The notes: a model not told the origin generated them from the sequence alone. Positions 22,258-43,850 are shown, counted from the first letter of the stretch. The stretch is DNA of 64,000 nt from an uncultured Candidatus Saccharibacteria bacterium (GCA_964566795.1 CAZMIU010000001.1:479090-543089); one strand, 5' to 3'. A program made the numbers and translations.

Positions 22258-22290
22258 CGAAAAACTCCGGCATGAGCCGGAGTTTTTACT
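22258..22290. terminator. bidirectional intrinsic terminator
   Basis: aaaaactccggcatgagccggagttttt. Confidence 0.75.
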
Positions 22291-23341: not shown

Positions 23342-23589
23342 AAGGGGTGCCGGACCCTTGGGGGAAGGTATGGGGGTGTGTGATGCCAAAGCGGGTGTAC
23401 CGTTTTCTCCCTCTGCTGCGCTAAAAAATGGCTCTATTGAGCCATGCTTTAGCTCCTCTAGCGGTACATACTAAACTGTAGCAAGCATGAATTGTGCGTC
23501 AACAAGCAAAAATGAACTAGACCTTGTTTTTGGGGTAAAAATCATGAAAATCTCTAGGAAATAAAGGCTTTTTGGGGTACTTTAGGTAG

Positions 23590-27245: not shown

Positions 27246-27263
27246 ACTTTCATTATATACTTG

Positions 27264-28151
27264 ATGGCAATGAGCCCGCGCCATTACCTGCCGTCAACAC
27301 AGTTTTTGGTCATTGTGGCGTCTCTTGTAATCTCGGGTTCGGCAGTTGCGGGGGCGCAGTACTTTGTCTCATCCAAAGACACATCGGGCACGCTTACAGC
27401 ACGCGACACACAGACAGCAGATAGTGGGTGGGAGCAGTCCTTAACCGACATACAGGCACAAAGTGGGATTAACCTACCCGACGCCCCAGACCCAAACGCA
27501 GTCCAAAACCTGCTGGCGCAGGCCCAGAGTAACAATCTCACCGACAGCATAGGGAGGGGCATTTTGGTGCGCATCACGACGGCGGGGGTACAGGGGTTAG
27601 GAGACGATATACCCACTCAAGACGGCATTATCTCGGCAGCAAGCCAGCAGATTAACGCTTCATCCAAGCAGGCAGCCAGCACCCCCGTGGTACAGGTAGA
27701 GGCAACCTCTGACACTATGCGCGCTTTTGGAAACGCGGTCATGGCTGTCATGACCAGGCACCCCAAAGCCAGCTTTAATGAGACTGTTGGAATACTCGCC
27801 AAGGCAACAGACACCCGCGACCCAAAGCCCCTGGCCGACTTAGCCGCGATAGGGCAGGAGTATAAGGTTTTGGCAGACGAGCTGTCCTTGATACCCACCC
27901 CAAAAACCATCGCTCCGCTATATCAGCGCGCGGTCTCTAACATGAATACGATAAGCACCCTATACGGGGAGCTGGGCACGGTGGTAAGTGACCCAGTGCG
28001 CGGGCTTGCCGCACTGCAGCAATACCAGCAACTTGTGTCAGAAACGAGCGGCGTGTTCACAAATATGGCTCAGATGCTCAAGAATGGCGGTATACTTTTT
28101 AGTAAGGACGAGCCGGGAAGCGCGTGGGAGCTTTTCCTGTCCGCATCCTAA
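27264..28151 (+). CDS. hypothetical membrane-anchored protein
   Basis: N-terminal TM anchor. The first ~94 codons of the ORF track overlap the divergent gene and are rejected. Confidence 0.55.
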
Positions 28152-28169
28152 ACGCCCGTACTTATTGTC

Positions 28170-30287
28170 ATGCCCAGGAAGATACTTTTTATAATCATCG
28201 GCGCACTGCTCTTCCTGGCCCTGTTAGCGCTCCTGTGGCTTTGGTTTATAAACCGCACACCCGACACCGAACCGGGTTCTCCAAGCGGTTTTGGCACTTC
28301 AAGTGACCGCGGCACCGGCACAAACACCGCCGGCACAGGAGGCAACACAGAGGGCTCGCTAAACCAAGAGGCAGCGGCCGACTACAACGTTACGCAGACC
28401 CCAGACGGCTACCTTATTAGTACGGCAGGAGGGTTGGGCGCCATAGCGCCGGGTACCTACCAGGTTAAAAAGGGGGGCGCCATAGTAGGAACCTATAAGC
28501 TCGACTCAAACGGTGTAGGCAAGTACAACCTGACCGGCGGCAACCTGCCGTCTGGGACATATACCTTTACGCCTTTTGTGTTGGGTAACACGGGCATAGG
28601 CGGGTCTATAAACACAGGTGGTGGCATCGATACTGGAGGAGGCATACCGCCTGGCGGCGCGATTGATACCGGCGGAGGTATTACTACCCCGGACACAAAT
28701 GGGGACAACACCACACCCCCGGAGGGAGCACTCTCAGGTGCATGGGTAGGCAGCAGCATATCCCAGCGTATATTTAGCCCAAGCGATATAGCAGAGATAA
28801 CCAACCCGGGTACTGTGGGCGGCACTCCGCTTATATCGACCACCCCGCAACCGGCAAGCGTAAACTCTTCGGGGCTCATTATCGGCGCTACTGCCGCAGC
28901 ATGTTTGGCACAATGGGTGGCAAACCAGGTTGCGGGCTCGGTTGCGTTTCTTGACCCGGTTATCGCAACAAGCCTCTTTACCGATGTGCCGTCTCTCGAC
29001 AAATCTGCGGCAAAACAGCGCACCTCACAGAGCGTCATCACCTGCATTGTCAAAACAATCGCGCAGGCTGCGATCGACCAGATCACCCGCAGTATTGTCG
29101 GATGGATTAACTCCGGCTTTAACGGACAGCCTTCGTTTGTCACCAACTTTAACCAATACTTTGCCAACGTGGCCGACCAGGCGGCGGGGGAGTTTATCAA
29201 GGGCTCGGCGCTCTCGTTTTTGTGTTCGCCATTTTCGGCACAGATAAAAATCGCGATCGCGCAGAGTTATGCCAACCGCAACTCCGCGGCCTCCTGTTCG
29301 CTCACCAAGGTAACAAACAACGTTAACGGGTTTTTGCGCGGAGCATGGAGCAACGGCGGGTGGGGCAGCATGCTGCAGATGACCACGATGCCGGTTAATA
29401 ACCGCTACGGCGCCTACGCCTACGGCGAGATAAGCCTTAAGGGCTACACCGCCAATGCGCAAAATGTGGCAAATCGCAACATAAGTCCGGGAGGGTTCAT
29501 TGCTGTGCAAAAATGCAAAGATAGTCCACTTAACATTGCTATGGGTCCAGGACAGGGCACTGCCCCAAAAAACTGTGAGACCACGACTCCGGGCCAAGTT
29601 GTGCAAGACTCGCTCAAAACCAGCTTTGACTCATCTATCAACCAGTTGCAGGTGGCACAAAACATCAATGAGATTATCAGTGCGCTTGTAAACCAGCTCA
29701 TACTCAAATCGCTCTATGGCGGTTTGGCCAATGCAAACACCGGTGTGACGAACCCGCTTGCGCCGGCAGTAGACCAGGCTGCAAGCGCACAGGCCCAGGC
29801 TCTGCTCACGAGCCTGCAGGCAAGCGCCACGGCGGCGGTACAGTTTGCCACCGTCAAGCAGGGGAGCGCGAGTGATATACAACAGGTGCAAAACAGCTTT
29901 AATACTGCATTTAACTGCTGGGAGACCGCCGCGACATCTACCGCACTCTCGGCCGACCTCAGGGCAACAGCCTCACAAAATGCCGCGGCGGCAGACGCAC
30001 AGATTGATCAGCTCCAGACACGGGTTGAGCTGTATAACGGCGATATTACTCGCGCCAACACCTCGCTCTCTGTCATACAAAACCTGCAGTCGCAGGTGAT
30101 GTTTGCCGCAACACCGGAGGATGTGCAAGCTGCAACCATTGCTGTACAAGCCGCAACACCATCTCTTATCGGAGCAGCTGATGTAACAACCGCTCAGCAG
30201 GATCGCACTGCACTCCAAACACAGCTGACCGCAACCAACAGCCAAGCCCAGGCGAGCCTTAGCCAATGCAGAGCGTTTGGAGCATAA
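28170..30287 (+). CDS. large secreted/membrane-anchored protein with Gly-rich GGGIDTGGG repeats (705 aa), T4SS-like locus component
   Basis: N-terminal TM, degenerate Gly-rich repeats, long Ala/Gln-rich helical C-terminus. Confidence 0.7.
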   Translation: MPRKILFIIIGALLFLALLALLWLWFINRTPDTEPGSPSGFGTSSDRGTGTNTAGTGGNTEGSLNQEAAADYNVTQTPDGYLISTAGGLGAIAPGTYQVKKGGAIVGTYKLDSNGVGKYNLTGGNLPSGTYTFTPFVLGNTGIGGSINTGGGIDTGGGIPPGGAIDTGGGITTPDTNGDNTTPPEGALSGAWVGSSISQRIFSPSDIAEITNPGTVGGTPLISTTPQPASVNSSGLIIGATAAACLAQWVANQVAGSVAFLDPVIATSLFTDVPSLDKSAAKQRTSQSVITCIVKTIAQAAIDQITRSIVGWINSGFNGQPSFVTNFNQYFANVADQAAGEFIKGSALSFLCSPFSAQIKIAIAQSYANRNSAASCSLTKVTNNVNGFLRGAWSNGGWGSMLQMTTMPVNNRYGAYAYGEISLKGYTANAQNVANRNISPGGFIAVQKCKDSPLNIAMGPGQGTAPKNCETTTPGQVVQDSLKTSFDSSINQLQVAQNINEIISALVNQLILKSLYGGLANANTGVTNPLAPAVDQAASAQAQALLTSLQASATAAVQFATVKQGSASDIQQVQNSFNTAFNCWETAATSTALSADLRATASQNAAAADAQIDQLQTRVELYNGDITRANTSLSVIQNLQSQVMFAATPEDVQAATIAVQAATPSLIGAADVTTAQQDRTALQTQLTATNSQAQASLSQCRAFGA

Positions 30288-33019
30288 CCACCTTGAACCC
30301 GACCACTTTAAAACTCAAAAAAATATTTAGGGGCGCCGCACGCGGGGTCTCTGCTGTGTTGTTGTTTACGGTGGTTTGCTCAATATTTCTGCAAGCACCG
30401 TCTGTTCCAGTTGCTTACGCACAAGGAGTACCACCCCCCGCTGCGACTATATCTGATGCATCTGTCAGATCACTCAACGATCTGTATAGGATCCATGGTG
30501 TCAGTGCTACGTGTGTTGCAACCCCCTCCACCTGCTCTGCGGCAGACACAAACATACTCACGACCAAGTTTGGCTTTGGTCCTGCGTGCATGTATGGAGC
30601 TACAAACCCAGAGGCGTGTACAGCCCAAGAGGCCCAGGCAAAATCAAGCGTACTAGGAGCGGTGGCTCGTGTGGCAAATCTCGCCACCAGTCTGGGTAGC
30701 AATGCAACAAACCAACTGGCCAACACTCCACAGGGCCAGGCCGCACTTACCGCTGCAACACAGGCAACAGCTAAAGCTGGGGCAGGGTCACCCCCACAAG
30801 GGTTGGGCTGCGGCATAAGCACCAACTTTGACGCGGGGGTATGTATCTCAAACATTGTCTACGTGTTTACGGTGGGGCTGGGCTCGGGGCTCGCCTATGT
30901 GGGCGGGTTTATGTTTGACATCACGGTGGCGCTCTCTCTAAACAGTGCTGCGTATGCGCTCGACTTCCTCTCGGCCGGCTGGACCACGGCGCGCGATCTC
31001 GCCAACATGGCCTTCATCCTCATTTTGGTCTACATCGCGTTTACCATTATGTTTAGGGCGGAGACAGCGCGCACCATGCAGATGTTGGCGTTGGTTATCT
31101 TTATTGCGCTGATCATCAACTTCAGCTTCTTCTTTACGCGTCTGGTGATAGACGTGGGCAACATACTGGCGGTACAGTTTTATAACTCGATAAGCGCGCC
31201 CAGCATGGCGGGTACCTTTGCCACCACCAACAGCAACACGGGTACACTTGCCGGTATAGCCACGGGCGCGGCAAACAGCCTTGGTTCGCAGGACGTGTTT
31301 AAAAACACCAAGGACCTGACCGCCAGCATCATGCAGGCGCTCAATATCCAGGAGTTGTTTAATGACAACAACTTTAAGAAGTTTGCCCAGGACTCAAGCT
31401 TTGGATCAAAGTTCATCATCCTCTCGTTCCTCTATATCGCCATTGGCGCCTGCTACTTTATCTTGGCGGCCATGTTTTTTGCCGTGGGCGTCAAGTTTTT
31501 GGTGCGCATCGTGGTGCTTTGGTTCTTGATCATCGCCTCGCCACTGGCGTTTGTGGCCAAGGCTATACCGGGACGCCCCAATGTCTCGGGGCTGTATGAC
31601 CAGTGGCAACACGAGCTTGTTTCGCACGCTTTTTACCCGGCATTCTTCCTGTTTATCTTCTTCTTTATATCGACGATTATGTCGAGCCTCGGCAGCGGCA
31701 CCGGCATCCTGGGCGGTCTTGCCTCGGACCTCAGCAAACTTGCGGCCAACGACCAGTTGGGAGGGTTTATCTTTATCGCCAGCTCGGTTGCCAACGTGGG
31801 CATCCGCCTGGGCTTTGTGGTCGCTATGCTCTACATAGCTCTCAAAGCATCGGAGCAGATGGGTGTTCGCGGCGCTCAGTTTGCAAACAAGGTCACTACG
31901 TACGCCTTTGGACAGACAGGCAAACTCGCATCTGCCCCAATCGGCTTTTTGGGTAGGAATACTGTGGGTAGGTATGTTGGAGCCCCATTGGCTAATACGG
32001 CCAAGAAGTTTGAAAACAGGGCCCTCCTGAGCAACAGTAGGATTGCCCGTGCCGGATGGAAAGGACTTGCCACGTCTACTGGCGTAACCGGCAATAAGTT
32101 GGGTAAGGCAACATATGACCCACGCAACGCCCCCGGCGCAAGCGTACTTAAAAAAGCGGTAGAGAAGGTCACTGGCCCAACAGTCAATGTTGGCAAACCT
32201 GCCGAGGGAGGCTTTATGGCACAAGCCAAAGCACGCGCTGACAGGATCAAACAGGAACAAGCGGCACGTTCAGCTCTACTGCGTGATGGAGAGACTAAGG
32301 AGCTTGTTAAACAATTGGCAGACAAGTCTCAGCGCCACGATGCCCTAGAAGCAAAAGAAAAAATAGCGCCTCTTAACCCTGCTGAAGTACAGGAGAAGCA
32401 AACTCTTAAGACAGACATCAGCAGGATGGCGAATACTCTAAATAGTCTTGGAAAACGTGAGATCGAGAGTGTAAAGGCCGATGATATACAAAAAGTTCTC
32501 AAGCACGCAAAAGAGGGGGTAGTAAAGAAAGTGGAGGACAGCGACAAATTTAACGAAAAAGAGAAAGCAGAGGTCCGTGAAAAGCATACGGAACAGATGT
32601 CTATCAAGGAGCAGGTAACAAACCAGAAAAAACTTGAAGACCTTGGCAAGAAGAGCCTCGATAATTCTCAGGAAATTATAAAAGAGTTGAGGCATGTACA
32701 AGAAATATTGCAGAAGAATGGCGGTATGTCTGCAAGCTCATTCAAAAATCTGTCGAGGGCAACAACAGCAGGTAATACTGTGTCCCCAACAGTATTAGAT
32801 GATGCACATAAAGAACTGCGAAATCAGTTTATCGTTGTTAATACACGCCTTAAGGATGCAATAAAGAACAAAGATGACGCCAAGAAGTTTGAAGCAGAAA
32901 TCAGCAGGGATAATATTCTTAAAGCTCAGGATCATATAAAGAAACTTAAAGAACACGTAAAGGATATACCTGCCAATATGGGCGGAGCTCCAAATACTCA
33001 AGAATTCTTAGTGGCATAA
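30266..33019 (+). CDS. VirB6/TrbL-like polytopic membrane protein with long K/E-rich coiled-coil tail (917 aa)
   Basis: Signal peptide, Cys-containing extracytoplasmic domain, 6-7 TM helices, lysine-rich C-terminal coiled coil. Topology typical of VirB6/PrgH-class proteins. Assignment is by architecture only. Confidence 0.7.
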   Translation: MQSVWSITTLNPTTLKLKKIFRGAARGVSAVLLFTVVCSIFLQAPSVPVAYAQGVPPPAATISDASVRSLNDLYRIHGVSATCVATPSTCSAADTNILTTKFGFGPACMYGATNPEACTAQEAQAKSSVLGAVARVANLATSLGSNATNQLANTPQGQAALTAATQATAKAGAGSPPQGLGCGISTNFDAGVCISNIVYVFTVGLGSGLAYVGGFMFDITVALSLNSAAYALDFLSAGWTTARDLANMAFILILVYIAFTIMFRAETARTMQMLALVIFIALIINFSFFFTRLVIDVGNILAVQFYNSISAPSMAGTFATTNSNTGTLAGIATGAANSLGSQDVFKNTKDLTASIMQALNIQELFNDNNFKKFAQDSSFGSKFIILSFLYIAIGACYFILAAMFFAVGVKFLVRIVVLWFLIIASPLAFVAKAIPGRPNVSGLYDQWQHELVSHAFYPAFFLFIFFFISTIMSSLGSGTGILGGLASDLSKLAANDQLGGFIFIASSVANVGIRLGFVVAMLYIALKASEQMGVRGAQFANKVTTYAFGQTGKLASAPIGFLGRNTVGRYVGAPLANTAKKFENRALLSNSRIARAGWKGLATSTGVTGNKLGKATYDPRNAPGASVLKKAVEKVTGPTVNVGKPAEGGFMAQAKARADRIKQEQAARSALLRDGETKELVKQLADKSQRHDALEAKEKIAPLNPAEVQEKQTLKTDISRMANTLNSLGKREIESVKADDIQKVLKHAKEGVVKKVEDSDKFNEKEKAEVREKHTEQMSIKEQVTNQKKLEDLGKKSLDNSQEIIKELRHVQEILQKNGGMSASSFKNLSRATTAGNTVSPTVLDDAHKELRNQFIVVNTRLKDAIKNKDDAKKFEAEISRDNILKAQDHIKKLKEHVKDIPANMGGAPNTQEFLVA

Positions 33020-33028
33020 TGTAAACAT

Positions 33029-33670
33029 ATGGCGCGAAAAACATATTCTGATGAAGAGATACAAAAGCGCATTGATCAGTTGTCTGAGGAAGCAGCTGAC
33101 TTTCTCTACAGCCCCGATATGGGGGTTTTGGTAAAGCATATTTCAGACGCCCACAAGCTGCATATAGACCAAATGTCGCTCCTGGAGGCTGAAGTGGGGG
33201 AGCTTATGCTCGGTCTCACTGAGCCCATGGAATTTGTTCCGAATCTTATGGACACACTCCATATAGACAAAGAAACCGCTGACGCTGTTGCAAAAGACGT
33301 AAATGATCAACTCATGCAAAAAATGAGAGGCCTTATGGGGGCACCGAGCGCTCAAACAGAATCATCTATCGTGATGCCTTCATCTAAGCCTATTGAGACT
33401 CCGCCTGCTCCTGTTGCTATACGTACTCCAGCTCCGGCAGCACCTATTGTGCCTCCTGTGGCACAAACTCCGGCTGTGGCGCCTAAACCTGCTCTAGACT
33501 TGCATGCCGCAGACGCCATGCTCTCCCAAAAACAGGTGAGTACCTCCGCAAGCGCCACCGTGCCTCCACCAGCAGCGCCCGCAGCCGCACCGGCGCCCGC
33601 AAAACCCGCACCAAGCCCAGCACAACCGCAAAACTATAAAGCAGACCCGTATCGAGAACCTGTTGAATAA
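33029..33670 (+). CDS. hypothetical protein with Pro/Ala-rich C-terminal half
   Basis: ORF in cluster orientation; low-complexity PAPAAP repeats. Confidence 0.55.
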   Translation: MARKTYSDEEIQKRIDQLSEEAADFLYSPDMGVLVKHISDAHKLHIDQMSLLEAEVGELMLGLTEPMEFVPNLMDTLHIDKETADAVAKDVNDQLMQKMRGLMGAPSAQTESSIVMPSSKPIETPPAPVAIRTPAPAAPIVPPVAQTPAVAPKPALDLHAADAMLSQKQVSTSASATVPPPAAPAAAPAPAKPAPSPAQPQNYKADPYREPVE

Positions 33671-33703
33671 GCGAGGAGCGAATAGGCTGTATAATTACAG
33701 CAC

Positions 33704-34156
33704 ATGGCTCAGTACCAAGTACCCCAATTTATCGAGGTTGAGGACAAGATCTTCGGACCTCTGACCATCAAGCAGTTTGTCTACCTCGCCGGGGCAGGGG
33801 GGCTCGCGCTTATCTGCTTTACCTTGCTACCACTCTTCCTTGCATTGCCGCTTGGCGGCTTGGCTGTCGCTATCGGAGCGGCGTTTGCGTTTTATCAGGT
33901 CAACGGCAGGCCGCTTATTGTCGCGGCAGAGCACGGGTTTAGCTACCTCTTGGGCCACAAGCTCTACCTCTGGAAGCAGCGCCAGGCCCCAAACACCCCG
34001 GTTGTCGTAACAAAAGAGGCGACAGCCACTCCGGGCGTTATATCGGTCCCCAGGCTTAGCCAAAGCAGGCTCAAAGACCTGTCGTGGTCACTTAATATCA
34101 AAGACCAGGAACCGCCTCAAGAAGAGGCCAACACGCCGCGCGGCCTGCAACTATAA
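33704..34156 (+). CDS. PrgI/VirB3-like small membrane protein of type IV secretion systems
   Basis: N-terminal IEVEDKIFGPLTIKQFVYL followed by two TM helices. Resembles the PrgI family encoded just upstream of VirB4 in Gram-positive T4SS. Confidence 0.65.
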   Translation: MAQYQVPQFIEVEDKIFGPLTIKQFVYLAGAGGLALICFTLLPLFLALPLGGLAVAIGAAFAFYQVNGRPLIVAAEHGFSYLLGHKLYLWKQRQAPNTPVVVTKEATATPGVISVPRLSQSRLKDLSWSLNIKDQEPPQEEANTPRGLQL

Positions 34157-34158
34157 CC

Positions 34159-34815
34159 ATGGCATCTACCACCGCATCACAAGCCAAAGCAACACAGGAG
34201 TTCGTACCTATACGGGAGGTACGCAACGGCATCGTGATACTCAAAGACGGGTCACTGCGCGCACTCCTTATGGCCTCGTCCATTAACCTGGCACTGAAGT
34301 CTCAGGATGAGCAGCAGGCTATCATTGGGCAGTTTCAAAATTTTCTGAACTCGCTGGAGTTTACGGCGCAGTTTTTTGTCCAGAGCCGCGACCTCGACAT
34401 CCGCCCCTACATCGCACTCCTTGAGGACCGCTACCAAAAGGAGCTTGACGACCTTATGCGTATCCAGATACGCGAGTATATAGCGTTTATCAAGGACTTT
34501 ACCGAACGCGCAAACATCATGAGTAAGAACTTCTTTATCGTGGTGCCTTACGACCCGTCACTCGCGGCCCGCGGCGGGGGACTGAGCTCTATACTCCCGG
34601 GCTCCGGAGCAACCGGCGCCACCATGACAGACGAGCAGTTCGAGCAGTACCGCACACAGCTTGAGCAGCGCGTCTCAGTCATCGAGCAGGGGTTGGTGCG
34701 CACAGGCGTGCGCATTGTGCAGTTGGGCACCGAGGAGGTCATTGAGCTCTTCTACAAGCTCTTTAATCCGGGCGAGCTTGAAAAGCCTCTCCAGGTACAG
34801 CAGCTTAAGCAGTAG
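34159..34815 (+). CDS. VirB4/TrsE-like T4SS ATPase, N-terminal fragment (ends at in-frame TAG)
   Basis: CagE/TrbE/VirB4 N-domain similarity (GIVILKDGSLRALLMASSINLALKSQDEQQ). Same reading frame as 34825..36639, separated only by TAG at 34813..34815. Confidence 0.7.
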   Translation: MASTTASQAKATQEFVPIREVRNGIVILKDGSLRALLMASSINLALKSQDEQQAIIGQFQNFLNSLEFTAQFFVQSRDLDIRPYIALLEDRYQKELDDLMRIQIREYIAFIKDFTERANIMSKNFFIVVPYDPSLAARGGGLSSILPGSGATGATMTDEQFEQYRTQLEQRVSVIEQGLVRTGVRIVQLGTEEVIELFYKLFNPGELEKPLQVQQLKQ

Positions 34816-34824
34816 TATACGCAT

Positions 34825-36639
34825 ATGGCACTCCTCGACTTCCTTACATCCAAAAAGTCTCCCGCAAGCGCACCGGTGGCGCCGATTTTGCCCCAAGAGA
34901 TTTACAAGCAGGGCGTGCTTGAGCTCCAGGATGTTATCGCGCCGTCGGCGCTCAAGATAACGCCGCGCGAGATTAACCTGGGCGACAAGATAGCGCGCAC
35001 ATTCTTTGTCATGTCGTATCCGCGTATCCTCACAGACTCGTGGTTTTCGCCCATCATAAACCTCGACCGTGTGCTCGACATATCGGTATTTATCCACCCG
35101 ATAGACTCGGCAGACATACTCAAAAAGTTCCAAAAGAAGGTAGCCGAGGTCCAGAGCCAGATTATGGCAAGAGAGGAGAAGGGGCTCGTGCGCGACCCGG
35201 TGCTCGATACCGCCTACCGCGATCTTGAGGACCTGCGCGACCAGCTGCAGCAGGCCCAGGAAAAGCTCTTTGATGTGGGCGTCTATATAACCATTTATGG
35301 CGCCTCGGTAGAGGAGCTTGATAAAGCCGAGAGCGAGATTAAGTCCATGCTCGAGTCGAGGCTTGTGTATGTAAAACCGGCGCTCTTCCAGCAGGAGCAG
35401 GGATTCCGCTCTGTGCTGCCGTTGGGCCACGATGAGCTCAGCGTGCTCTCCAAACTCAACTCCTCCCCGCTGTCCTCCATATTCCCGTTTGTGTCCTTTG
35501 ACCTTACCTCTGACAAAGGCATTCTCTACGGCGTGAACCGACACAATGCCTCTTTGGTGCTGTTTGACCGCTTTTCGCTTGAGAACTACAACTCGGTGGT
35601 GTTTGCCAAGTCGGGCTCCGGCAAAAGCTACGCCACCAAGCTCGAGATTTTGCGCACGCTCATGTTTGATACGGAGGTTATTGTGATAGATCCGGAGCGC
35701 GAGTACGAGTTTCTGAGTCAGGCTGTGGGTGGGCGCTACTTTAATATCTCCCTTAACTCCGAGCACCACATAAACCCGTTTGACCTGGCGCCGCCGCGCG
35801 AGGATGAGTCGTCGGCCGATGTGCTGCGCTCCAACATCGTGGCGCTTGTGGGGATGTTCCGCATTATGCTCGGGGGGCTGTCCCCGGAGGAGGATGCCAT
35901 TATAGACAAGGCTATTACCGAGACCTACGCGCTTAAGGATATAACCATAGACTCAAACTTTGCCGAGATTGAGCCGCCGCTCCTGTCGGACTTCGAGCTG
36001 GTGCTCTCGGGCATGCAGGGCTCGGAGTCATTGGTGCAGCGCTTAAGCAAGTACACCAAGGGTACCTGGGCCGGGTTTATCAACCAACCGACCAACGTCG
36101 ACCTTAACAAAAAGTTTGTCGTGTTCTCGGTGCGCGACATGGAGGACGACCTCAAGCCCGTGGCGATGTACCTCATTACGCACTATATATGGAATGCGGT
36201 GCGCAAAACCCTCAAAAAGCGCCTACTGGTCATAGACGAGGCCTGGTGGATGATGAAAAGCGAGGACACGGCCTCCTTCCTCTACGGCATGGCCAAGCGC
36301 GGCCGCAAGTACTACCTGGGGCTTGCGACCATTACCCAGGACGTGGATGACTTCCTCAAGTCGCCCTACGGATTGCCCATGATAACCAACTCCTCCATCC
36401 AGCTCTTGCTCAAGCAGTCGCCCACCACCATAGACACGCTGCAAAAGACCTTTAACCTCTCAGAAGAGGAAAAATACCTGCTACTGGAGTCGGATGTGGG
36501 GGAGGGGATATTCTTTGCGGGCCTCAAGCACGTGGCTATTAAGGTGATAGCCTCATACACCGAGGACCAGATTATCACCTCCGACCCGTCTCAGGTGTTG
36601 GCATTGCGCAAGCAGCGCGCAGAAGCGGCGGTACAATAG
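34825..36639 (+). CDS. VirB4/TrsE-like T4SS ATPase, C-terminal ATPase part
   Basis: Walker A GSGKS, Walker B LLVIDEAW, VirB4 C-terminal motifs. No SD in front of its ATG. Confidence 0.8.
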   Translation: MALLDFLTSKKSPASAPVAPILPQEIYKQGVLELQDVIAPSALKITPREINLGDKIARTFFVMSYPRILTDSWFSPIINLDRVLDISVFIHPIDSADILKKFQKKVAEVQSQIMAREEKGLVRDPVLDTAYRDLEDLRDQLQQAQEKLFDVGVYITIYGASVEELDKAESEIKSMLESRLVYVKPALFQQEQGFRSVLPLGHDELSVLSKLNSSPLSSIFPFVSFDLTSDKGILYGVNRHNASLVLFDRFSLENYNSVVFAKSGSGKSYATKLEILRTLMFDTEVIVIDPEREYEFLSQAVGGRYFNISLNSEHHINPFDLAPPREDESSADVLRSNIVALVGMFRIMLGGLSPEEDAIIDKAITETYALKDITIDSNFAEIEPPLLSDFELVLSGMQGSESLVQRLSKYTKGTWAGFINQPTNVDLNKKFVVFSVRDMEDDLKPVAMYLITHYIWNAVRKTLKKRLLVIDEAWWMMKSEDTASFLYGMAKRGRKYYLGLATITQDVDDFLKSPYGLPMITNSSIQLLLKQSPTTIDTLQKTFNLSEEEKYLLLESDVGEGIFFAGLKHVAIKVIASYTEDQIITSDPSQVLALRKQRAEAAVQ

Positions 36640-36645
36640 GAGTAC

Positions 36646-37317
36646 ATGAACGTGACGCTGCGGATATTCGCGGGTTTTATAGACCTCCTGCAATTTGTCT
36701 TTTTTGTGGTGTTTTTGGCGTTCCAGGTTATGACGCCATACGGAGGGGCGGCTATCGGTGGAGTTGCGGGCGCGTATGTTTGCTGGAGCATGTCGGATGG
36801 TATCGTAAACGGTATTGTAAACGGAGCGGCATGCGCGTTGGGTATAGGAGCAGTGGGAGGTATAGTGAGCGCGATTGCAACCCCCGTTGGCATGGCCATA
36901 GACGTGGCCATAAGCGCCACGTTTGGCACACTGCTTTTGTTGTGTATGTGGGTGACGGGGCGTTTTTACCTCATGCCTGTTGCTTTGGGGTTTTCGGGCG
37001 AGCTCCTGCCGGGCATTAACGCGTTTGTGCCGGGGTGGAGCCTGCTTGTGCACCGCTGTATACAGCAGCACAAGCTACAGGAGCAGGGCGTGGGCAGGGT
37101 TGGGCGCACCATAAGCCTGCTTGGCAGTATGGGGAGTGTAGTCCCTGGCGCCGCAGTTGCTACAAAGGCGCTTAAGCCCGCTCTTGCTGTGGCAGGCATG
37201 GCACAGAGGGCTATAGCACCCAGAGACTCGCTAACACGCACGCCGCTTAAAAACTTTGACGGCATCAAGGCCTCGAACGACAACGCCCTAAGAAACACCT
37301 ATGCTAAAGCTGCGTAA
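36646..37317 (+). CDS. polytopic membrane protein (Gly-rich TM helices), T4SS-like locus
   Basis: SD AGGAG 3 nt before ATG. 5-6 predicted TM helices. Confidence 0.65.
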   Translation: MNVTLRIFAGFIDLLQFVFFVVFLAFQVMTPYGGAAIGGVAGAYVCWSMSDGIVNGIVNGAACALGIGAVGGIVSAIATPVGMAIDVAISATFGTLLLLCMWVTGRFYLMPVALGFSGELLPGINAFVPGWSLLVHRCIQQHKLQEQGVGRVGRTISLLGSMGSVVPGAAVATKALKPALAVAGMAQRAIAPRDSLTRTPLKNFDGIKASNDNALRNTYAKAA

Positions 37318-38314
37318 CCTCACACTGCTTATCGCGTTTTTGATGCCAACGTTGGCCTATGCGCAGTTTTTGCCTGAGCCTATCCAATACATTATCTCTC
37401 CTGAGGTACCGGGGCCCGGCGAGCAGGTAACCATCGAGGCACAGGGTGTTGGAGCGTTTTTGGGTGATGCCAAGATCACCTGGCAGGAGGGTGGCAAAAC
37501 TGTAAGCACGGGTGTGGGCGCACGCACCTACAGCTTTATTGCGGGCGGTGTCGGGAGCGTCACCACCATTAAGGTAGACATCGTGTCGCAAACAAACGGC
37601 TCGTTTACAAAAACGTTTGTATTCAGACCCTCTACCGTCAACCTGGTCTGGGAGGCAAACACATCGGCTCCGCCGCTCTACGCCGGCAAAACCCTCTACT
37701 CCGGAGGCTCGCAGCTAAAGGTGGTCGCATTCCCCAACGTGGTCATAAACGGCTCGCGTGTGGCCCCAGAGAGCCTCTCCTACCAGTGGACACGCGTCGA
37801 CCAGGCATTGCCGGCTCAGTCCGGGCAGGGGCGCTATGTTCTTGATATTGATGGCGACCAATTACAGCCTAGCGAGGATATTGGGGTAAAAGTCTACTTT
37901 GGTGCGGCGCTTGTGGCACAAGGCGGCATATCGGTGCCCGCAGTGGCGCCCGCAGTGCGCCTGTACGAGCGCGACGCACTGCGCGGCACGCTCACCGACG
38001 CGGCCCTGCCCTCGGGCATCTCTCTTACCAAAAGGGAGATAACCATAGCGGCGCAGCCATACTTTTTTGCCAGGACGGCGGCCGAGAGCGGGGCACTTTC
38101 ATACGCGTGGAATTTGGACGGCAATGAGATAGTGGGCCCCGACTCTGCACGCGGCCTACTGACACTCAGGCAAACCGGCAGCGGGGCGGGTGAGGCGCAG
38201 CTTGCTGTAGACATACAAAACAGCATGGACGACCAGCTGGTACAGGCAGCCAACACGCTGCTTGTCATACTCTTTGGCGGCTCAGCATCCGGCACATCAC
38301 TCTTTGGCCTATGA
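37301..38314 (+). CDS. secreted hypothetical protein (signal peptide), T4SS-like locus
   Basis: Signal peptide MLKLRNLTLLIAFLMPTLAYAQ. 17-nt overlap with the upstream gene. Confidence 0.65.
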   Translation: MLKLRNLTLLIAFLMPTLAYAQFLPEPIQYIISPEVPGPGEQVTIEAQGVGAFLGDAKITWQEGGKTVSTGVGARTYSFIAGGVGSVTTIKVDIVSQTNGSFTKTFVFRPSTVNLVWEANTSAPPLYAGKTLYSGGSQLKVVAFPNVVINGSRVAPESLSYQWTRVDQALPAQSGQGRYVLDIDGDQLQPSEDIGVKVYFGAALVAQGGISVPAVAPAVRLYERDALRGTLTDAALPSGISLTKREITIAAQPYFFARTAAESGALSYAWNLDGNEIVGPDSARGLLTLRQTGSGAGEAQLAVDIQNSMDDQLVQAANTLLVILFGGSASGTSLFGL

Positions 38315-38976
38315 AACACCTACTCCTCTTAAGTATCGCAGTATGTCTCTTTGCGGGCCCGCTCATGGTGGCTCACGCGCAGACCGCGGGGTTTGTGACA
38401 CCCTCAAACGGTAAAAACCCCAACGTTTTTTGTGCCAATGACGGCAAAGGCTCAAGCTCCTGCACCTATGTGCCGCTCGAGCCCCTGCCGTTTTTGCCAA
38501 ACAAGTATGGGCCCGAGAGCGGATCTATAGGCACATTTATAGGGCAGGGATTTAAGCTCATAATCGGTGCGGGTGCCGTGATAGCCGTTGCCATCATTGT
38601 GCTGGGTGCATTGACATACATGTTCTCTGACGTTGCAGGCAATAAAAAAGATGCGCTTGCACGCATCCGCAACGGCATGTGGGGCATAGTCATACTGCTC
38701 TCGTCCTACCTTATCCTCTATACGATAAACCCGGATCTTGTGACCTTTAACCTAAAACTTACTCCGCTAAACAACTACAACACGACCCCGGGTTCTAGCT
38801 CTGGTGGAACGAGGGTCATTGTAACCAACCCAAGCGGCGTAAATATATACAACGGCCCGGATGCATATGAGCAACGCGCAGCCGAAGAGGCTAAATGCCC
38901 AAGCCCCAAGTCTTTGCACGCAACCGGCAGAAATACAGACTCGCGGGGGGAATATGTAACCTATACCTGCATGTAA
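38311..38976 (+). CDS. pilin-like (VirB2/TrbC-like topology) protein: signal peptide plus two TM helices
   Basis: Signal peptide, then hydrophobic helices FKLIIGAGAVIAVAIIVLGALTYMF and MWGIVILLSSYLILYTIN. ATGA overlap with the upstream gene. Confidence 0.6.
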   Translation: MKHLLLLSIAVCLFAGPLMVAHAQTAGFVTPSNGKNPNVFCANDGKGSSSCTYVPLEPLPFLPNKYGPESGSIGTFIGQGFKLIIGAGAVIAVAIIVLGALTYMFSDVAGNKKDALARIRNGMWGIVILLSSYLILYTINPDLVTFNLKLTPLNNYNTTPGSSSGGTRVIVTNPSGVNIYNGPDAYEQRAAEEAKCPSPKSLHATGRNTDSRGEYVTYTCM

Positions 38977-38979
38977 TAT

Positions 38980-40233
38980 ATGCAAAACCTTAACCTAAGA
39001 CTTGTGGCGGAGATAATCGGAGGAGCGCTTTTTGTGCTGCTTGTCATCTGGTTCTTTTTCCTGCGCACGCCGGGGCTCGAGCCTACAGACACCGCGGCCC
39101 AACAAACATTTGGGACAGGGGATGAGCGCACCCAAGTTTCTCCCACCGCAAGCACAGGCAACGACGGCGCCGGGGTGCTTGAGTCTCCCGTGTCCCAACA
39201 GAGGGTATTTAAAATATCCGATGGGCCAGTCGCGGGTGCCACGTTTATGCAGGAGGCCCGACCCACAACAACGGTTGCGCGCTTTGTTATGCAGCAAAAC
39301 GGCCACGTGCTTGACCTGGCGATAGACAGCCCGGGCTCGGTTGCGCGTGCCATTTCAAACACGACTATCCCAGGCGCAAAAGAAGTGGTCTGGGAGATAG
39401 CGAAGGACAACGCGCGCCAAGTTGCACAGGGCGCCATACTGCGCTACATAGACCAAACCATTATCAAGAGCGTGTTGCTTTTGTTCCCCCAGTCTGCAAC
39501 CACAACAAGCGTAGCCGCGGTGCGTATCCAGTTTCTGCCGGACAACATTCTCTCGCTTGCCGCATCCCCCGATGGCGCCTCTGTTGTATACCTGGTTGCA
39601 ACCGCAGCAGGCTCTGACGGCTACGTGGCGCGCGCGGACGGCACCAACCCAAAGAAGCTCTTCTCGCTGCCACTCACACAGATGACCGTGCAGTGGCCAT
39701 CGGTGGGCACTATACTTGCCACGACCAAAGCCGCCACAGGCGTACCTGGGATGGCATTCTCAATCAGTGCGGCATCGGGCGCTGTCTCTCCCATACTGTA
39801 TGCCTCCGGTATTACCACTACAGCCGACTTTGGGTTTAATCAGGTGGTGTACCAAAGCGCCAACGGAGCAACAAGGTTTACATATGCCCACAACACCAAG
39901 ACCAACCTCGACCGGTCGCTCTCGTTTGACCCAATGCCCGACAAGTGTATCTGGAGCCGCCTGCAGACAAGCACCATGTTCTGCGCAGTACCGCTGACCT
40001 ATATTGTCCCGGAGTATAACGACCTGTGGTACCAGGGAGCCGACTCAGCCGCGGACTCTATCGTGTCCTACAACCTCATTACCGGCAAAAATACCGTACT
40101 CGCCACACCGGGCGCAGAGGATGGCGGCACAGCCGCAGACATAGCACACATGGCACTATCAGCAGACGAAAAGTATCTCCTGTTTGTAAAGAAAGGGGAC
40201 AGAAGCCTGTGGGGCGTGCGTTTAGCACGATAG
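38980..40233 (+). CDS. membrane-anchored hypothetical protein (N-terminal TM, large extracytoplasmic domain)
   Basis: N-terminal TM helix. Last gene of the co-directional cluster. Confidence 0.65.
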   Translation: MQNLNLRLVAEIIGGALFVLLVIWFFFLRTPGLEPTDTAAQQTFGTGDERTQVSPTASTGNDGAGVLESPVSQQRVFKISDGPVAGATFMQEARPTTTVARFVMQQNGHVLDLAIDSPGSVARAISNTTIPGAKEVVWEIAKDNARQVAQGAILRYIDQTIIKSVLLLFPQSATTTSVAAVRIQFLPDNILSLAASPDGASVVYLVATAAGSDGYVARADGTNPKKLFSLPLTQMTVQWPSVGTILATTKAATGVPGMAFSISAASGAVSPILYASGITTTADFGFNQVVYQSANGATRFTYAHNTKTNLDRSLSFDPMPDKCIWSRLQTSTMFCAVPLTYIVPEYNDLWYQGADSAADSIVSYNLITGKNTVLATPGAEDGGTAADIAHMALSADEKYLLFVKKGDRSLWGVRLAR

Positions 40234-40278: not shown

Positions 40279-40725
40279 CTACAACCTAAATTTTAAGACT
40301 ATGTGGCGAAACTTACCCTCGCCTGCCGACTCTGTTTTTATCTCCGGATCATCATGGAACAGCTCGTGCACCACCAGGCGCTCGTAGGGCGAAAGGGGAG
40401 GCATCTCTACATCGTGCTTAAAAAGGCGGGCGCGGGAAGCCAGCATGCGTGCCTGCTCTCGCACACGCTCCATTTTACTCTCGTGCTGGCCGTTTATATC
40501 AATTAAAAACGCCGCCGCGTCTTCTCCGTGGGTGCGCTCTACCATGCGCTTGGCTATGGTGTTTAGTGCGCGCACCACCTCGCCATCCTGGTTTGAGAGT
40601 GCCGGGTCATCGCTTTGTATGGCAACGAGTGTGCGGTGCCCCGAGGTTACGCTGACAGCGTGTACTGTCACGCCAAGCTTGTCCAATAAATCCTTTATGA
40701 AGGCTTGTAGCAAGGTTGGCTCCAT
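40279..40725 (-). CDS. jag: Jag/KhpB-like R3H-domain RNA-binding protein
   Basis: C-terminal R3H-like LSPYERLVVHELF. Located downstream of yidC as in jag operons. Confidence 0.7.
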   Translation of the reverse strand: MEPTLLQAFIKDLLDKLGVTVHAVSVTSGHRTLVAIQSDDPALSNQDGEVVRALNTIAKRMVERTHGEDAAAFLIDINGQHESKMERVREQARMLASRARLFKHDVEMPPLSPYERLVVHELFHDDPEIKTESAGEGKFRHIVLKFRL

Positions 40726-40777
40726 GGACCAACTATAAACCACCGCCTGCCTCAAAAACAGTGGACGGGGGCGTTTT

Positions 40778-41488
40778 TTAGTTTTCCTTTTTGCCCTGGT
40801 GGGTCAAAATCCACTCCTGGAGCACGGAAACCAGGTTGCTGGTGAGAAAATAGACTCCTATAGCCGCAGGGAAGGAGTAGGACACCACCACCATGAGCGC
40901 GGGCATAAAGTAAAGCATGAGGTTGCTCTGCATGCGGTGGAGCTTTTCCTTGTCGGGGTGTGTTGGGGAGGGTGTGCGGCGCAACGTAAGGCGTATGGCA
41001 AGGTACTGGGTAAAGCCCACCAGTATTGCCAGGGGAATGTGGTGCGATCCCATGAGATCTATAAGGCCAAAGAAGGTGGTTGATACCTGCGAAGGCACTC
41101 CTACAAACGAGTAGAGGAGCTCCTGGTTGATGGTAGGGAAGCCCTCACGAAACAGCGCAAAGTAGAGTGCAATAAGCACCACAAGCTGGATAATGAGCGC
41201 GCCAAAGCCTGCAAACGGGTTGACCTTGTACTTCTTGAGGAGTGCCAGGCGCTCGCGCGTAAGCGCCTCCTTGTCGCCCTTGTACCTCTCCTCGGCGGCA
41301 TCAAGCTCGGGCTGCATAGCCTGCATACCCACCTGGGTGCGTATAGAGGCGGTAAAGACCGGGTAGAGCACCGCACGCATAATAAGGGTGATAACAACTA
41401 TGGCGAGCACGCCGTCGCCCTCTGGCACGAGCCCCAACACAAACACGAACAGGTTATAAATTGGCTGTACTAGGAAAGTTGTAAACAT
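40778..41488 (-). CDS. yidC: membrane protein insertase YidC (short Gram-positive/CPR type)
   Basis: Oxa1-family 5-TM core. Follows rnpA. Confidence 0.88.
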   Translation of the reverse strand: MFTTFLVQPIYNLFVFVLGLVPEGDGVLAIVVITLIMRAVLYPVFTASIRTQVGMQAMQPELDAAEERYKGDKEALTRERLALLKKYKVNPFAGFGALIIQLVVLIALYFALFREGFPTINQELLYSFVGVPSQVSTTFFGLIDLMGSHHIPLAILVGFTQYLAIRLTLRRTPSPTHPDKEKLHRMQSNLMLYFMPALMVVVSYSFPAAIGVYFLTSNLVSVLQEWILTHQGKKEN

Positions 41489-42512: not shown

Positions 42513-43850
42513 ATGACCACCACGAAAGAACTTTGGGAGAATACGCTTGTAGAACTGGAGTTGACGATATCCAAGCCCAACTTTAATACGTGGTTTAAAG
42601 ATACTCATATTGTGCGGGTAGAGGATGGCACGGTTTACCTGGGCGTACCCTCGCAATTTGCCCGCGACTGGCTCTCTACCAAGTTTCATAAAGATATTTT
42701 GCGCTCATTGCGCATGCTCTCGGAGTCTGTGCGCACGGTGGAGTATGTAATATCGCGCGGCCATAAGCGCCAGGAGGAGGCAAAAGCAGTGCCCCCGCCG
42801 CCCCAGGAGCTGGCACTTGAGCCGGTGCACCAAAAAACAAACCTCAATCCGCGCTTTAGCTTCTCATCCCTTGTGGTTGGGCCCTTTAATGAGCTCGCAC
42901 ACGCCGCAGCGCAGGCTGTGGTGCGCAAGCCGGGTATTGCGTATAACCCCCTTCTTATCTATGGCCCAACCGGCCTGGGTAAGACACACCTTATACAGGC
43001 GATAGGGAACCACTTTAGGACCAGCGCGCCCGACCGCAAAGTGTACTACGTTACCTCGGAGCGCTTCTCTATGGACTATGTCTCGGCACTCCAGGCAGGC
43101 AAAGTACAGGGCTTTAAGGAAAAGTACCGCCAATATGACCTCCTCATTATGGATGATGTCCAGTTTTTGGCCGGGCGTGACAAAATAAAGGAGGAATTCT
43201 TTCATCTCTTTAACTTTTTGCACGACGGCAATAAACAACTGGTCTTTACATCCGACCAGCACCCCAATGTGATACAGGGACTCGAGGACAGGCTTAAGTC
43301 GCGCTTTAATGCGGGCATGATTGTGTCTGTAACCCCTCCAGACCACCAGTCGAGGCTCGCCATTGTGCGCACCAAAGCCTCTATGCATGGATTTTTGCTC
43401 CCGGATGAGGTGCTGGAGTACCTGGCCACCACCATAGAAGGAAATGTGCGCGAACTCGAGGGAGCGCTCAACACGCTGATGATCCAGTTTGAAATGCGCG
43501 GCGAGCCTCTCAATATCAATGATGTAAAGACACTCCTGCGTGGCACGGGCGCCTCGTCTAAAAAAGCGGTCTCGGTACAAGAGGTGGTTAAGACCATTGC
43601 CAACTTTTATGGGGTAGAGGAGGGGAGTATTTATGAGAAGACCAGGCGCAAAGAGGTGGTGCGCCCCAGACAAGTGATAATGTTCTTGCTGCGTGAGGAC
43701 TTTAGGATCTCATTCCCGACTATTGGCGACAAATTGGGGGGCCGTGACCATACCACTGTCATACACTCCTGCGAGAAGATAAAAAACGACCTGCGTACTG
43801 ACTCAGTACTCTCAAACGAACTCCACCAGATCCGCCTTATGCTCAAGTAG
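42513..43850 (+). CDS. dnaA: chromosomal replication initiator DnaA
   Basis: AAA+ Walker A GPTGLGKTHL, domain IV HTH, full-length similarity. Confidence 0.95.
   Translation: MTTTKELWENTLVELELTISKPNFNTWFKDTHIVRVEDGTVYLGVPSQFARDWLSTKFHKDILRSLRMLSESVRTVEYVISRGHKRQEEAKAVPPPPQELALEPVHQKTNLNPRFSFSSLVVGPFNELAHAAAQAVVRKPGIAYNPLLIYGPTGLGKTHLIQAIGNHFRTSAPDRKVYYVTSERFSMDYVSALQAGKVQGFKEKYRQYDLLIMDDVQFLAGRDKIKEEFFHLFNFLHDGNKQLVFTSDQHPNVIQGLEDRLKSRFNAGMIVSVTPPDHQSRLAIVRTKASMHGFLLPDEVLEYLATTIEGNVRELEGALNTLMIQFEMRGEPLNINDVKTLLRGTGASSKKAVSVQEVVKTIANFYGVEEGSIYEKTRRKEVVRPRQVIMFLLREDFRISFPTIGDKLGGRDHTTVIHSCEKIKNDLRTDSVLSNELHQIRLMLK

What the first reader, a model, noticed from the sequence alone, without database searches (positions are those of the whole stretch)
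34813..34827. VirB4 ATPase split by a single in-frame TAG
ORFs 34159..34815 (VirB4 N-domain) and 34825..36639 (VirB4 ATPase domain) are in the same frame, separated only by TAG and then tat-acg-cat-ATG. There is no SD before the second ATG. Either the gene is a pseudogene or sequencing error, a genuinely split VirB4 with translational coupling, or the amber codon is read through. TAG is used as a normal stop elsewhere (e.g. clpP), which argues against genome-wide recoding.
Basis: seen in the sequence. Interest (0 to 1): 0.55.

Follow-up and report, generated by a model that had tools for sequence, protein, structure and literature searches.

The report
Naturally two-gene VirB4 secretion ATPase
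The "interrupted" VirB4 gene is not broken: in this ultra-small (Patescibacteria/CPR) bacterium and every informative relative examined, the type IV secretion ATPase is normally encoded as two adjacent genes, an arrangement already described in the literature, and the in-frame TAG is a coincidence.

Summary
The sequence is as described. ORF1 (34159..34815, 218 aa) ends in TAG, then comes 9 nt (tatacgcat), then ORF2 (34825..36639, 604 aa) starts at ATG in the same frame. It is neither a pseudogene, nor an assembly error, nor a read-through site.

- **Reproducible:** six independent metagenome assemblies carry the identical junction.
- **Conserved split:** all 77 informative species-level relatives (Adlerbacteria/Paceibacteria; ORF1 62-89% identical) have the same split.
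- **Variable junction:** ORF1's stop is TAA in 57, TAG in 16 and TGA in 4. The spacer runs from 1 to 442 nt. ORF2 is in frame with ORF1 in only 17 of 77.
- **Fixed ORF2 start:** ORF2 always begins at the same conserved ATG (MALLDFL...).
- **ORF1 identity:** it is a stand-alone TrsD-like ("TraC-like", PF26593) protein. Its predicted fold matches only R388 TrwK/VirB4. One rare natural fusion (797 aa) shows that ORF1 and ORF2 are colinear with a single VirB4.
- **Known precedent:** staphylococcal pSK41 has the same VirB3-like, TrsD, VirB4-core gene order.
- **Already published:** Quiñonero-Coronel et al. 2025 (PMC12102498) report TrsD next to virB4 as the most abundant T4SS component across Patescibacteria.
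- **No SD is uninformative:** 53 of 59 ORFs in the window lack one.

Ordinary and already known.

The parts
33704..34156 (+). PrgI family (VirB3-like) small membrane protein; its stop lies 2 nt before the ORF1 start
   Evidence: Pfam PF12666 PrgI, E 5.1e-10. A TATAAT box ends 8 nt upstream of its ATG.
34159..34815 (+). TrsD-like / 'TraC-like' stand-alone protein (218 aa), homologous to the first half of the VirB4 N-terminal domain
   Evidence: NCBIfam TrsD/TraD E 4.3e-9, VirB4_plasma positions 98-234 E 2e-9, CD1110 VirB4 positions 2-116 E 2.5e-5. Precomputed PF26593 TraC-like. AF2 model pLDDT 88.9; top 14 Foldseek PDB hits are all TrwK/VirB4. 39% identical to residues 3-214 of the fused VirB4 P0232.
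34813..34815 (+). TAG stop codon of ORF1, an ordinary terminator
   Evidence: At the same position relatives have TAA 57, TAG 16, TGA 4. The closest species-level relative, L007, has TAA.
34816..34824 (+). 9-nt intergenic spacer (tatacgcat) with no SD, no promoter-like and no terminator-like match
   Evidence: Spacer length in relatives is 1-442 nt, and at most 13 nt in 66 of 77.
34825..36639 (+). VirB4 core (604 aa): second half of the N-terminal domain plus the Walker A/B ATPase domain (GSGKS; VIDEAW)
   Evidence: NCBIfam CD1110-family VirB4 E 1.6e-114, 383.8 bits against a cutoff of 325, profile positions 184-733 of 752. Pfam P-loop_TraG and TraC_F_IV positions 298-374. PDB 4ag5 E 1.2e-41; TrwK residues 286-733. 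The N-terminus MALLDFL is conserved in 77 relatives.
38311..38976 (+). T4SS pilin-like (VirB2-like) protein in the same cluster; both matches are below the curated cutoffs
   Evidence: Pfam T4SS_pilin E 4.1e-5, 24 bits against a cutoff of 26.6. NCBIfam Mbov_0395 pilin-like E 4.3e-4, 19.9 bits against a cutoff of 40.
28170..40233 (+). Tightly packed co-directional gene cluster holding the T4SS genes, about 2.3 kb from dnaA
   Evidence: ORF list. jag/R3H 40279..40755, yidC 40778..41488, dnaA 42513..43850, ksgA 25488..26216. This is the same chromosomal context as reported in PMC12102498.

Best explanation
Shown: ORF1 and ORF2 are two separate, functional, co-oriented genes that together encode the VirB4-type ATPase of a chromosomal, monoderm-type (MPF_FATA-like) type IV secretion system in an Adlerbacteria/Paceibacteria (Patescibacteria/CPR) genome. 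ORF1 is a TrsD-like protein equivalent to the first ~175-215 residues of a one-piece VirB4. ORF2 is the rest of the N-terminal domain plus the P-loop motor. The gene order VirB3-like (PrgI), TrsD-like, VirB4 core keeps the colinearity of virB3-virB4. The split is an ancient, lineage-wide trait, and the TAG is simply ORF1's terminator. Its being in frame with ORF2 at a 9-nt distance is coincidental. Inferred: the two polypeptides assemble non-covalently into a VirB4-like unit. By analogy with the R388 structure, the TrsD-like piece would contribute the membrane-proximal, VirB3-contacting part. Inferred: prgI, ORF1 and ORF2 are co-transcribed, probably from a leaderless-type promoter just before prgI. 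ORF2 would then be translated by termination-reinitiation (translational coupling) or by SD-independent initiation at its A/T-rich start region. The spacers of 2 and 9 nt, and the near-absence of SD sequences in the window, fit this.
For: Six independent assemblies carry the identical junction. The top 120 homologues of ORF1 (80-100% identity) are all 216-226 aa stand-alone proteins. Of the 150 best 50%-cluster representatives (36-85% identity), 149 are short stand-alone proteins of 121-443 aa, and only one (P0232) is a full-length VirB4 fusion. All 77 informative GTDB species genomes have the split, and ORF2 starts at the same conserved ATG and N-terminus. The stop codon varies (TAA 57, TAG 16, TGA 4), the spacer varies (1-442 nt), and the frame varies (in frame 17, +1 44, +2 16). 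In one genome (L074) a complete 23S_rRNA_IVP gene sits between the two genes. ORF1 is strongly conserved along its length apart from a variable loop at residues ~134-158; its C-terminal motif NPGELEKPLQ is invariant, and only the last few residues vary. A genuine single-ORF fusion (P0232/L087, no stop, standard code) aligns residues 3-214 to ORF1 and 226-794 to ORF2. pSK41 has trsD (227 aa) 14 nt upstream of its VirB4-like gene, and the ORF1 family profile aligns to pSK41 TrsD over 175 columns (E 3e-5). PMC12102498 reports TrsD, a remote homologue of the VirB4 N-terminus, as the most abundant Patescibacteria T4SS component: 2,272 homologues, 1,664 of them next to virB4, and listed as essential in S. 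epibionticum ML1. SD-like motifs precede only 6 of 59 ORFs. No promoter-like or terminator-like site lies at the junction. -10-like boxes cluster 5-8 nt before start codons, including prgI.
Against: No expression or protein data exist for this organism. The physical association of the two products, the role of the TrsD-like piece and the way ORF2 is initiated are all inferences. The NCBIfam TrsD hit is far below its curated cutoff (36.5 against 200 bits), and direct BLASTP to pSK41 TrsD is not significant, so the link to staphylococcal TrsD is remote. Foldseek TM-scores to TrwK are moderate (0.50-0.55), and the tool does not report which TrwK residues align. Relatives with spacers of 19-442 nt (11 of 77) cannot rely on tight coupling, so coupling is not obligatory in the family.
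Confidence: 0.93

Rival explanations
1. Programmed or leaky read-through of the amber codon yields a functionally relevant full-length ~93 kDa VirB4 fusion (TAG decoded, then Tyr-Thr-His-Met...) alongside the two separate products.
For: In this genome the two ORFs are in frame with no second stop in the 9-nt spacer. A natural covalent fusion is tolerated in at least one lineage (P0232).
Against: In-frame arrangements are a minority among relatives (17 of 77), fewer than the one in three expected by chance. Some in-frame spacers contain further in-frame stops (L030, L037). The closest relative (L007) has TAA and a different 9-nt spacer. TAA is the stop in 57 of 77. TAG terminates 18 of 59 ORFs in the window. 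No suppressor tRNA was found in the window. The natural fusion lacks ORF2's first ~29 residues, so a read-through product would not resemble it.
Confidence: 0.03
2. Pseudogene or sequencing/assembly error: a single VirB4 gene recently broken by a nonsense mutation or base-call error.
For: Only the superficial appearance: one stop codon, the same frame, and colinearity with one-piece VirB4 proteins.
Against: The junction is identical in six independent assemblies from different sequencing runs. The split is present in all 77 informative species-level relatives and in thousands of database homologues. Both halves are highly conserved and intact, at 62-89% and 73-94% amino-acid identity. ORF2 has its own conserved N-terminus, which is absent from the fused form.
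Confidence: 0.01
3. ORF2 has its own promoter in the 3' end of ORF1 or the spacer (TAGTAT ends 6 nt before the ATG) and is made from a separate leaderless mRNA rather than by coupling.
For: -10-like hexamers ending 5-8 nt before start codons are common in this window (11 of 16 hits). TAGTAT, a 4/6 match with A2 and T6, ends 6 nt before ORF2's ATG.
Against: The hexamer is below the threshold used. In 20 of 77 relatives the spacer is a single nucleotide, and TA-rich hexamers in the others sit at inconsistent distances. This concerns only how ORF2 is expressed and does not change what the locus is.
Confidence: 0.15

Closest known systems
TrsD + VirB4 pair of Patescibacteria T4SS (Quiñonero-Coronel et al. 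2025, Microb Genom, PMC12102498)
   Same: A stand-alone protein homologous to the VirB4 N-terminus sits immediately upstream of virB4. It is accompanied by PrgI/VirB3-like and VirB2-like pilin genes, is chromosomal, and lies close to dnaA/ksgA/yidC. The lineage is the same (Paceibacteria). This window is simply one instance.
   Different: Nothing substantive. In the sections and term searches I read, the paper does not discuss junction anatomy (stop codon, spacer, frame), which I tabulated here.
TrsD/TraD + TrsE/TraE of staphylococcal conjugative plasmids pGO1/pSK41 (MPF_FATA, pGO1 subclass)
   Same: The three-gene order is the same: small VirB3-like protein, ~220-aa TrsD, ~600-670-aa VirB4-like ATPase, with a short intergenic gap (14 nt in pSK41). 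Profile-level homology to TrsD runs end to end.
   Different: The sequence relationship is very remote: 36.5 bits against a cutoff of 200, and BLASTP is not significant. pSK41 is a conjugative plasmid with relaxase and coupling protein. Here the system is chromosomal, near the origin, and according to the literature probably repurposed.
One-piece VirB4/TraC/TrwK ATPases (e.g. R388 TrwK; CD1110 family of Firmicutes ICEs)
   Same: ORF1 plus ORF2 are colinear with the whole protein. ORF2 reaches the CD1110 equivalog cutoff. The ORF1 model matches TrwK only. A rare fused Patescibacteria homologue exists (P0232).
   Different: The protein is encoded as two polypeptides, with the break inside the N-terminal domain. 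ORF2 carries an extra conserved ~29-residue N-terminal segment that the fused homologue lacks.
VirB3-VirB4 fusions in some conjugative systems
   Same: Both show that polypeptide boundaries within the VirB3/VirB4 module are evolutionarily fluid.
   Different: The direction is opposite: fusion there, fission here. PMC12102498 found no VirB3-VirB4 fusions in Patescibacteria.

Membership tests
VirB4/TraC-type T4SS ATPase (ORF2) | Significant match to a curated VirB4 model at or above its cutoff | tested here: met
   NF045971 CD1110-family VirB4: 383.8 bits against a cutoff of 325, E 1.6e-114. PF19044 P-loop_TraG: 93.5 bits against 25.8.
VirB4/TraC-type T4SS ATPase (ORF2) | Walker A and Walker B nucleotide-binding motifs | tested here: met
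   Seen directly in the translation: FAKSGSGKSY (Walker A) and LLVIDEAWW (Walker B). They align to the 4ag5 VirB4 C-terminal domain.
VirB4/TraC-type T4SS ATPase (ORF2) | Complete N-terminal domain and ATPase domain on one polypeptide | tested here: not met
   ORF2 covers CD1110 profile positions 184-733 only. Positions 2-116 are on ORF1. So ORF2 is a VirB4 core, and the complete VirB4 equivalent is ORF1 plus ORF2.
VirB4/TraC-type T4SS ATPase (ORF2) | Encoded with other T4SS components (VirB3-like, pilin or VirB6-like) | tested here: met
   PrgI at 33704..34156 (above cutoff). T4SS pilin-like at 38311..38976, though that match is below cutoff.
TrsD/TraD family, i.e. Pfam PF26593 'TraC-like' (ORF1) | HMM match to the family model | tested here: inconclusive
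   NF041427 TrsD: E 4.3e-9 but 36.5 bits against a cutoff of 200. PF26593 is listed as a precomputed hit for ORF1 and all 120 top homologues, but that model is not in the Pfam copy I could scan. hhalign of family profile A2 against pSK41 TrsD: probability 73%, E 3e-5, 175 columns.
TrsD/TraD family, i.e. Pfam PF26593 'TraC-like' (ORF1) | Stand-alone ~200-230 aa protein encoded immediately upstream of the VirB4-like ATPase | tested here: met
   218 aa, 9 nt upstream of ORF2. pSK41 has the same layout.
TrsD/TraD family, i.e. Pfam PF26593 'TraC-like' (ORF1) | Homology to the N-terminal portion of VirB4 | tested here: met
   NCBIfam hits to VirB4_plasma positions 98-234 and CD1110 positions 2-116. 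39% identity to residues 3-214 of fused VirB4 P0232. The AF2 model (pLDDT 88.9) matches TrwK/VirB4 chains exclusively (top 14, probability 1.00); the next hit has E 0.2.
Programmed stop-codon read-through / recoding site | In-frame stop with conserved frame relationship and stop identity among relatives | tested here: not met
   In frame in 17 of 77. Stops are TAA 57, TAG 16, TGA 4. Spacer is 1-442 nt.
Programmed stop-codon read-through / recoding site | Detectable read-through product | not testable with these tools
   Needs proteomics or ribosome profiling.
Pseudogene (nonsense-disrupted VirB4) | Intact single-ORF orthologues in close relatives, with relaxed constraint on the fragments | tested here: not met
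   All close relatives are split. Both fragments are highly conserved.

The most novel reading that the evidence does not exclude
In this strain and the ~22% of relatives where trsD-like and virB4 happen to be in frame, low-level stop-codon read-through could yield a small pool of covalently fused, full-length VirB4. This might seed or regulate assembly of the ATPase complex, giving a stoichiometric 'fusion by leakiness' layered on a split gene. The evidence does not strictly exclude it, but nothing supports selection for it.
Probability: 0.03. Interest if true: 0.35.

Novelty: already known. Interest (0 to 1): 0.1.

Why it matters
For the scan, it removes a false alarm. A stop codon inside what looks like one conserved gene is here a normal gene boundary, so it should not be annotated as a pseudogene, an error or a recoding event. 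Biologically, the Patescibacteria T4SS is of real interest: according to PMC12102498, citing Wang et al. 2023, it is essential for epibiotic growth in the one strain tested. However, the TrsD + VirB4 architecture itself is already published. The only modest addition here is the junction survey. The break point and ORF2's N-terminus are fixed, while the stop codon, spacer and frame drift freely, and a whole gene can be inserted between the two halves. This shows that the halves are expressed as independent cistrons.

Tried and rejected
1. AF2 prediction of ORF1 with the shallow alignment A1 (20 sequences above 80% identity) gave an unusable model (pLDDT 35). I repeated it with the diverse alignment A2 and it worked.
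2. Sequence-profile searches of PDB with A1 and A2 found nothing significant for ORF1. Only the fold comparison linked it to TrwK.
3. Direct BLASTP of ORF1 against pSK41 TrsD was not significant. Profile-sequence hhalign was needed.
4. Scanning ORF1 against the local Pfam copy did not reproduce the precomputed PF26593 hit. It gave only a weak TraC_F_IV match, E 0.043, so the model appears to be absent from that copy.
5. Guglielmini et al. 2014 (PMC4027160) is cited by the 2025 paper for TrsD-VirB4 homology, but 'TrsD' does not occur in its held main text. I therefore cite the 2025 paper for that statement.
6. I suspected that the 797-aa 'fusion' P0232 was a gene-calling artefact of an alternative code (TGA = Gly). 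I rejected this after reading the DNA, which has no stop at the junction.
7. L085 looked like an overlapping or extended ORF1, but its junction is a run of N, so I excluded it. L065 and L079 end before ORF2.
8. The promoter/terminator consensus scan found nothing at the junction.

Full report
**Observation**

ORF1 runs 34159..34815 (218 aa) and ORF2 runs 34825..36639 (604 aa). They share a frame, and the only stop between them is the TAG. No Shine-Dalgarno-like motif precedes the second ATG.

**What the two ORFs are**

- **ORF2** reaches the curated cutoff of the CD1110-family VirB4 model. It scores 383.8 bits against a cutoff of 325, matching profile positions 184-733 of 752.
- ORF2 also has the P-loop_TraG domain and the last ~77 positions of the TraC_F_IV N-terminal domain.
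- It matches the solved VirB4 C-terminal domain 4ag5 (E 1.2e-41) and residues 286-733 of R388 TrwK.
- **ORF1** matches the very N-terminus of VirB4 models: CD1110 positions 2-116 and VirB4_plasma positions 98-234. It also matches the stand-alone TrsD/TraD family, though far below that model's cutoff.
- ORF1 weakly matches TraC_F_IV positions 19-173 of 375. The break therefore lies inside the canonical VirB4 N-terminal domain, not between the N-terminal domain and the ATPase.
- With a diverse alignment, AF2 gives a confident ORF1 model (pLDDT 88.9). Its top 14 Foldseek hits in PDB are all TrwK/VirB4 chains (probability 1.00, TM 0.50-0.55), and the next hit has E 0.2.
- The gene immediately upstream (33704..34156) is a PrgI/VirB3-like protein, and a pilin-like gene lies downstream, although its matches are below cutoff.

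**Is it an error or a pseudogene?**

No. The exact ORF1 protein occurs in nine contigs. The six places returned come from different sequencing runs and have the identical TAG + tatacgcat + ATG junction, with separate 218-aa and 604-aa gene calls.

The 120 best database homologues of ORF1 (80-100% identity) are all 216-226 aa. In an exhaustive search of 50%-identity cluster representatives, 2,333 proteins matched. Of the best 150 (36-85% identity), 149 are short stand-alone proteins of 121-443 aa, some of them fragments, and only one is a full-length VirB4 fusion.

ORF1 is strongly conserved along its length apart from a variable loop at residues ~134-158. Its C-terminal motif NPGELEKPLQ is invariant, and only the last few residues vary.

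**Junction survey in relatives**

I fetched 80 species-representative genomes (Adlerbacteria, Paceibacterota and other Patescibacteria labels). In 77 of them the junction is readable.

| Feature | Result in 77 relatives |
|---|---|
| Split present | 77 of 77 |
| ORF1 stop codon | TAA 57, TAG 16, TGA 4 |
| Spacer length | 1-442 nt; 1 nt ("TAAtATG") in 20; at most 13 nt in 66 |
| Frame of ORF2 relative to ORF1 | in frame 17, +1 in 44, +2 in 16 |

- Some in-frame spacers contain further in-frame stops.
- The nearest species-level relative (L007, 89% identity) has TAA and a different 9-nt spacer.
- ORF2 always starts at the same homologous ATG with a conserved N-terminus (MALLDFL...). The 8 nt upstream are A/T-rich and G-poor, and T is at position -1 in 68 of 77.
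- In L074 a complete 133-aa 23S_rRNA_IVP-family gene sits between the two genes.

The in-frame TAG in this window is therefore a coincidence, and there is no sign of selection for read-through. TAG is a routine terminator here (18 of 59 ORFs), and no suppressor tRNA is present in the window.

**The Shine-Dalgarno argument**

Only 6 of 59 ORFs of at least 100 aa in the window have any SD-like tetramer or longer in the -18..-4 region, so its absence before ORF2 says nothing. Instead, -10-like hexamers cluster 5-8 nt upstream of start codons (11 of 16 hits). These include prgI (TATAAT, 8 nt) and the genes at 33029 and 36646, which suggests leaderless transcripts. No promoter-like or terminator-like match lies at the ORF1/ORF2 junction.

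My inference is that prgI, ORF1 and ORF2 form one transcription unit, with spacers of 2 and 9 nt. ORF2 would then be translated by reinitiation/coupling or by SD-independent initiation. This step is inferred, not shown.

**Colinearity with a single VirB4**

One homologue, P0232 (797 aa, MAG GCA_964615945.1), is a real single-ORF fusion. The DNA has no stop at the junction under the standard code. Its residues 3-214 align to ORF1 (39% identity) and residues 226-794 align to ORF2 residues 30-597 (57% identity). The fused form lacks ORF2's first ~29 residues, so that conserved segment is specific to the split form.

**Comparison with what is known**

- pSK41 has a small VirB3-like gene, then trsD (227 aa), a 14-nt gap, and a 672-aa VirB4-like gene. 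The ORF1 family profile aligns to pSK41 TrsD over 175 columns (E 3e-5, probability 73%).
- Quiñonero-Coronel et al. 2025 (PMC12102498) state that TrsD, a remote homologue of the VirB4 N-terminal portion, is the most abundant T4SS component in Patescibacteria. They report 2,272 homologues, 1,664 of them next to virB4, and note that it is listed as essential in S. epibionticum ML1. They also report that the cluster often lies near dnaA and ksgA.
- The window reproduces that context: ksgA at 25488..26216, jag, yidC, and dnaA at 42513..43850.

**Verdict**

The feature is an ordinary, already published gene architecture, so interest is low. The residual novel reading is a functional trace of read-through fusion in the in-frame minority. 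It has no supporting evidence, and I put it at about 3%.

Noticed in passing
window, upstream of starts at 33029, 33704, 36646, 45233-47587(-), 49040-49510(-), 53599, 62634 and others: SD-like motifs are nearly absent (6 of 59 ORFs). Instead, -10-like hexamers (TATAAT, CATAAT, TACAAT, TAGAAT, often preceded by TG/GG) end 5-8 nt before the start codon in 11 of 16 hexamer hits. This suggests widespread leaderless mRNAs and several internal promoters within the T4SS cluster.
   Followed up: partly
L074:3646-4087: In one Patescibacteria MAG a complete 133-aa 23S_rRNA_IVP (four-helix-bundle, bAvd-like) gene is inserted between the trsD-like gene and virB4 (Pfam E 7.5e-38).
   Followed up: yes
L087:544-2937 (GCA_964615945.1, CAZTUR010000004.1): This is a rare genuine single-ORF TrsD-VirB4 fusion (797 aa), also next to prgI and near jag/yidC/rnpA/dnaA. 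It lacks the ~29-residue N-terminal segment conserved in split VirB4 cores. Whether it is a re-fusion or the ancestral state was not resolved.
   Followed up: partly
L010:3643-3748, L037:3652-3711, L055:3667-3743: Unusually long trsD-virB4 spacers contain short direct repeats (L010 'ttggagctt...gagatttggagctt'; L037 reiterated 'ctag') or a long imperfect inverted repeat (L055). They may be small inserted elements or hairpins.
   Followed up: no
L001 and L002 versus window 28170..38976: Assemblies sharing the identical TrsD-like and VirB4 proteins differ in neighbouring genes. L001 has a 738-aa gene where the window has the 917-aa ORF (30266..33019). L002 has the 221-aa pilin-like gene directly after virB4, without the 223-aa and 337-aa genes (36646..38314). 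This indicates strain-level variation in the accessory part of the cluster.
   Followed up: no
window 26982..33670, 36646..38314 and 38980..40233: Seven sizeable ORFs in or beside the T4SS cluster (389, 705, 917, 213, 223, 337 and 417 aa) have no significant Pfam or NCBIfam match, apart from one weak sub-cutoff PspA hit for the 213-aa ORF. They are candidate lineage-specific T4SS or surface components.
   Followed up: no
P0143, P0150, P0167, P0205 (homologues of ORF1): Some TrsD-like homologues in more distant lineages are 300-443 aa long because of low-complexity, Pro/Gln/Thr/Ala-rich C-terminal tails appended to the conserved ~210-aa domain.
   Followed up: no
window 22286..23389 (-): A LysM + Peptidase_M23 protein lies about 5 kb upstream of the T4SS cluster. 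PMC12102498 mentions proteins with these domains as possible VirB1 substitutes in Patescibacteria.
   Followed up: no
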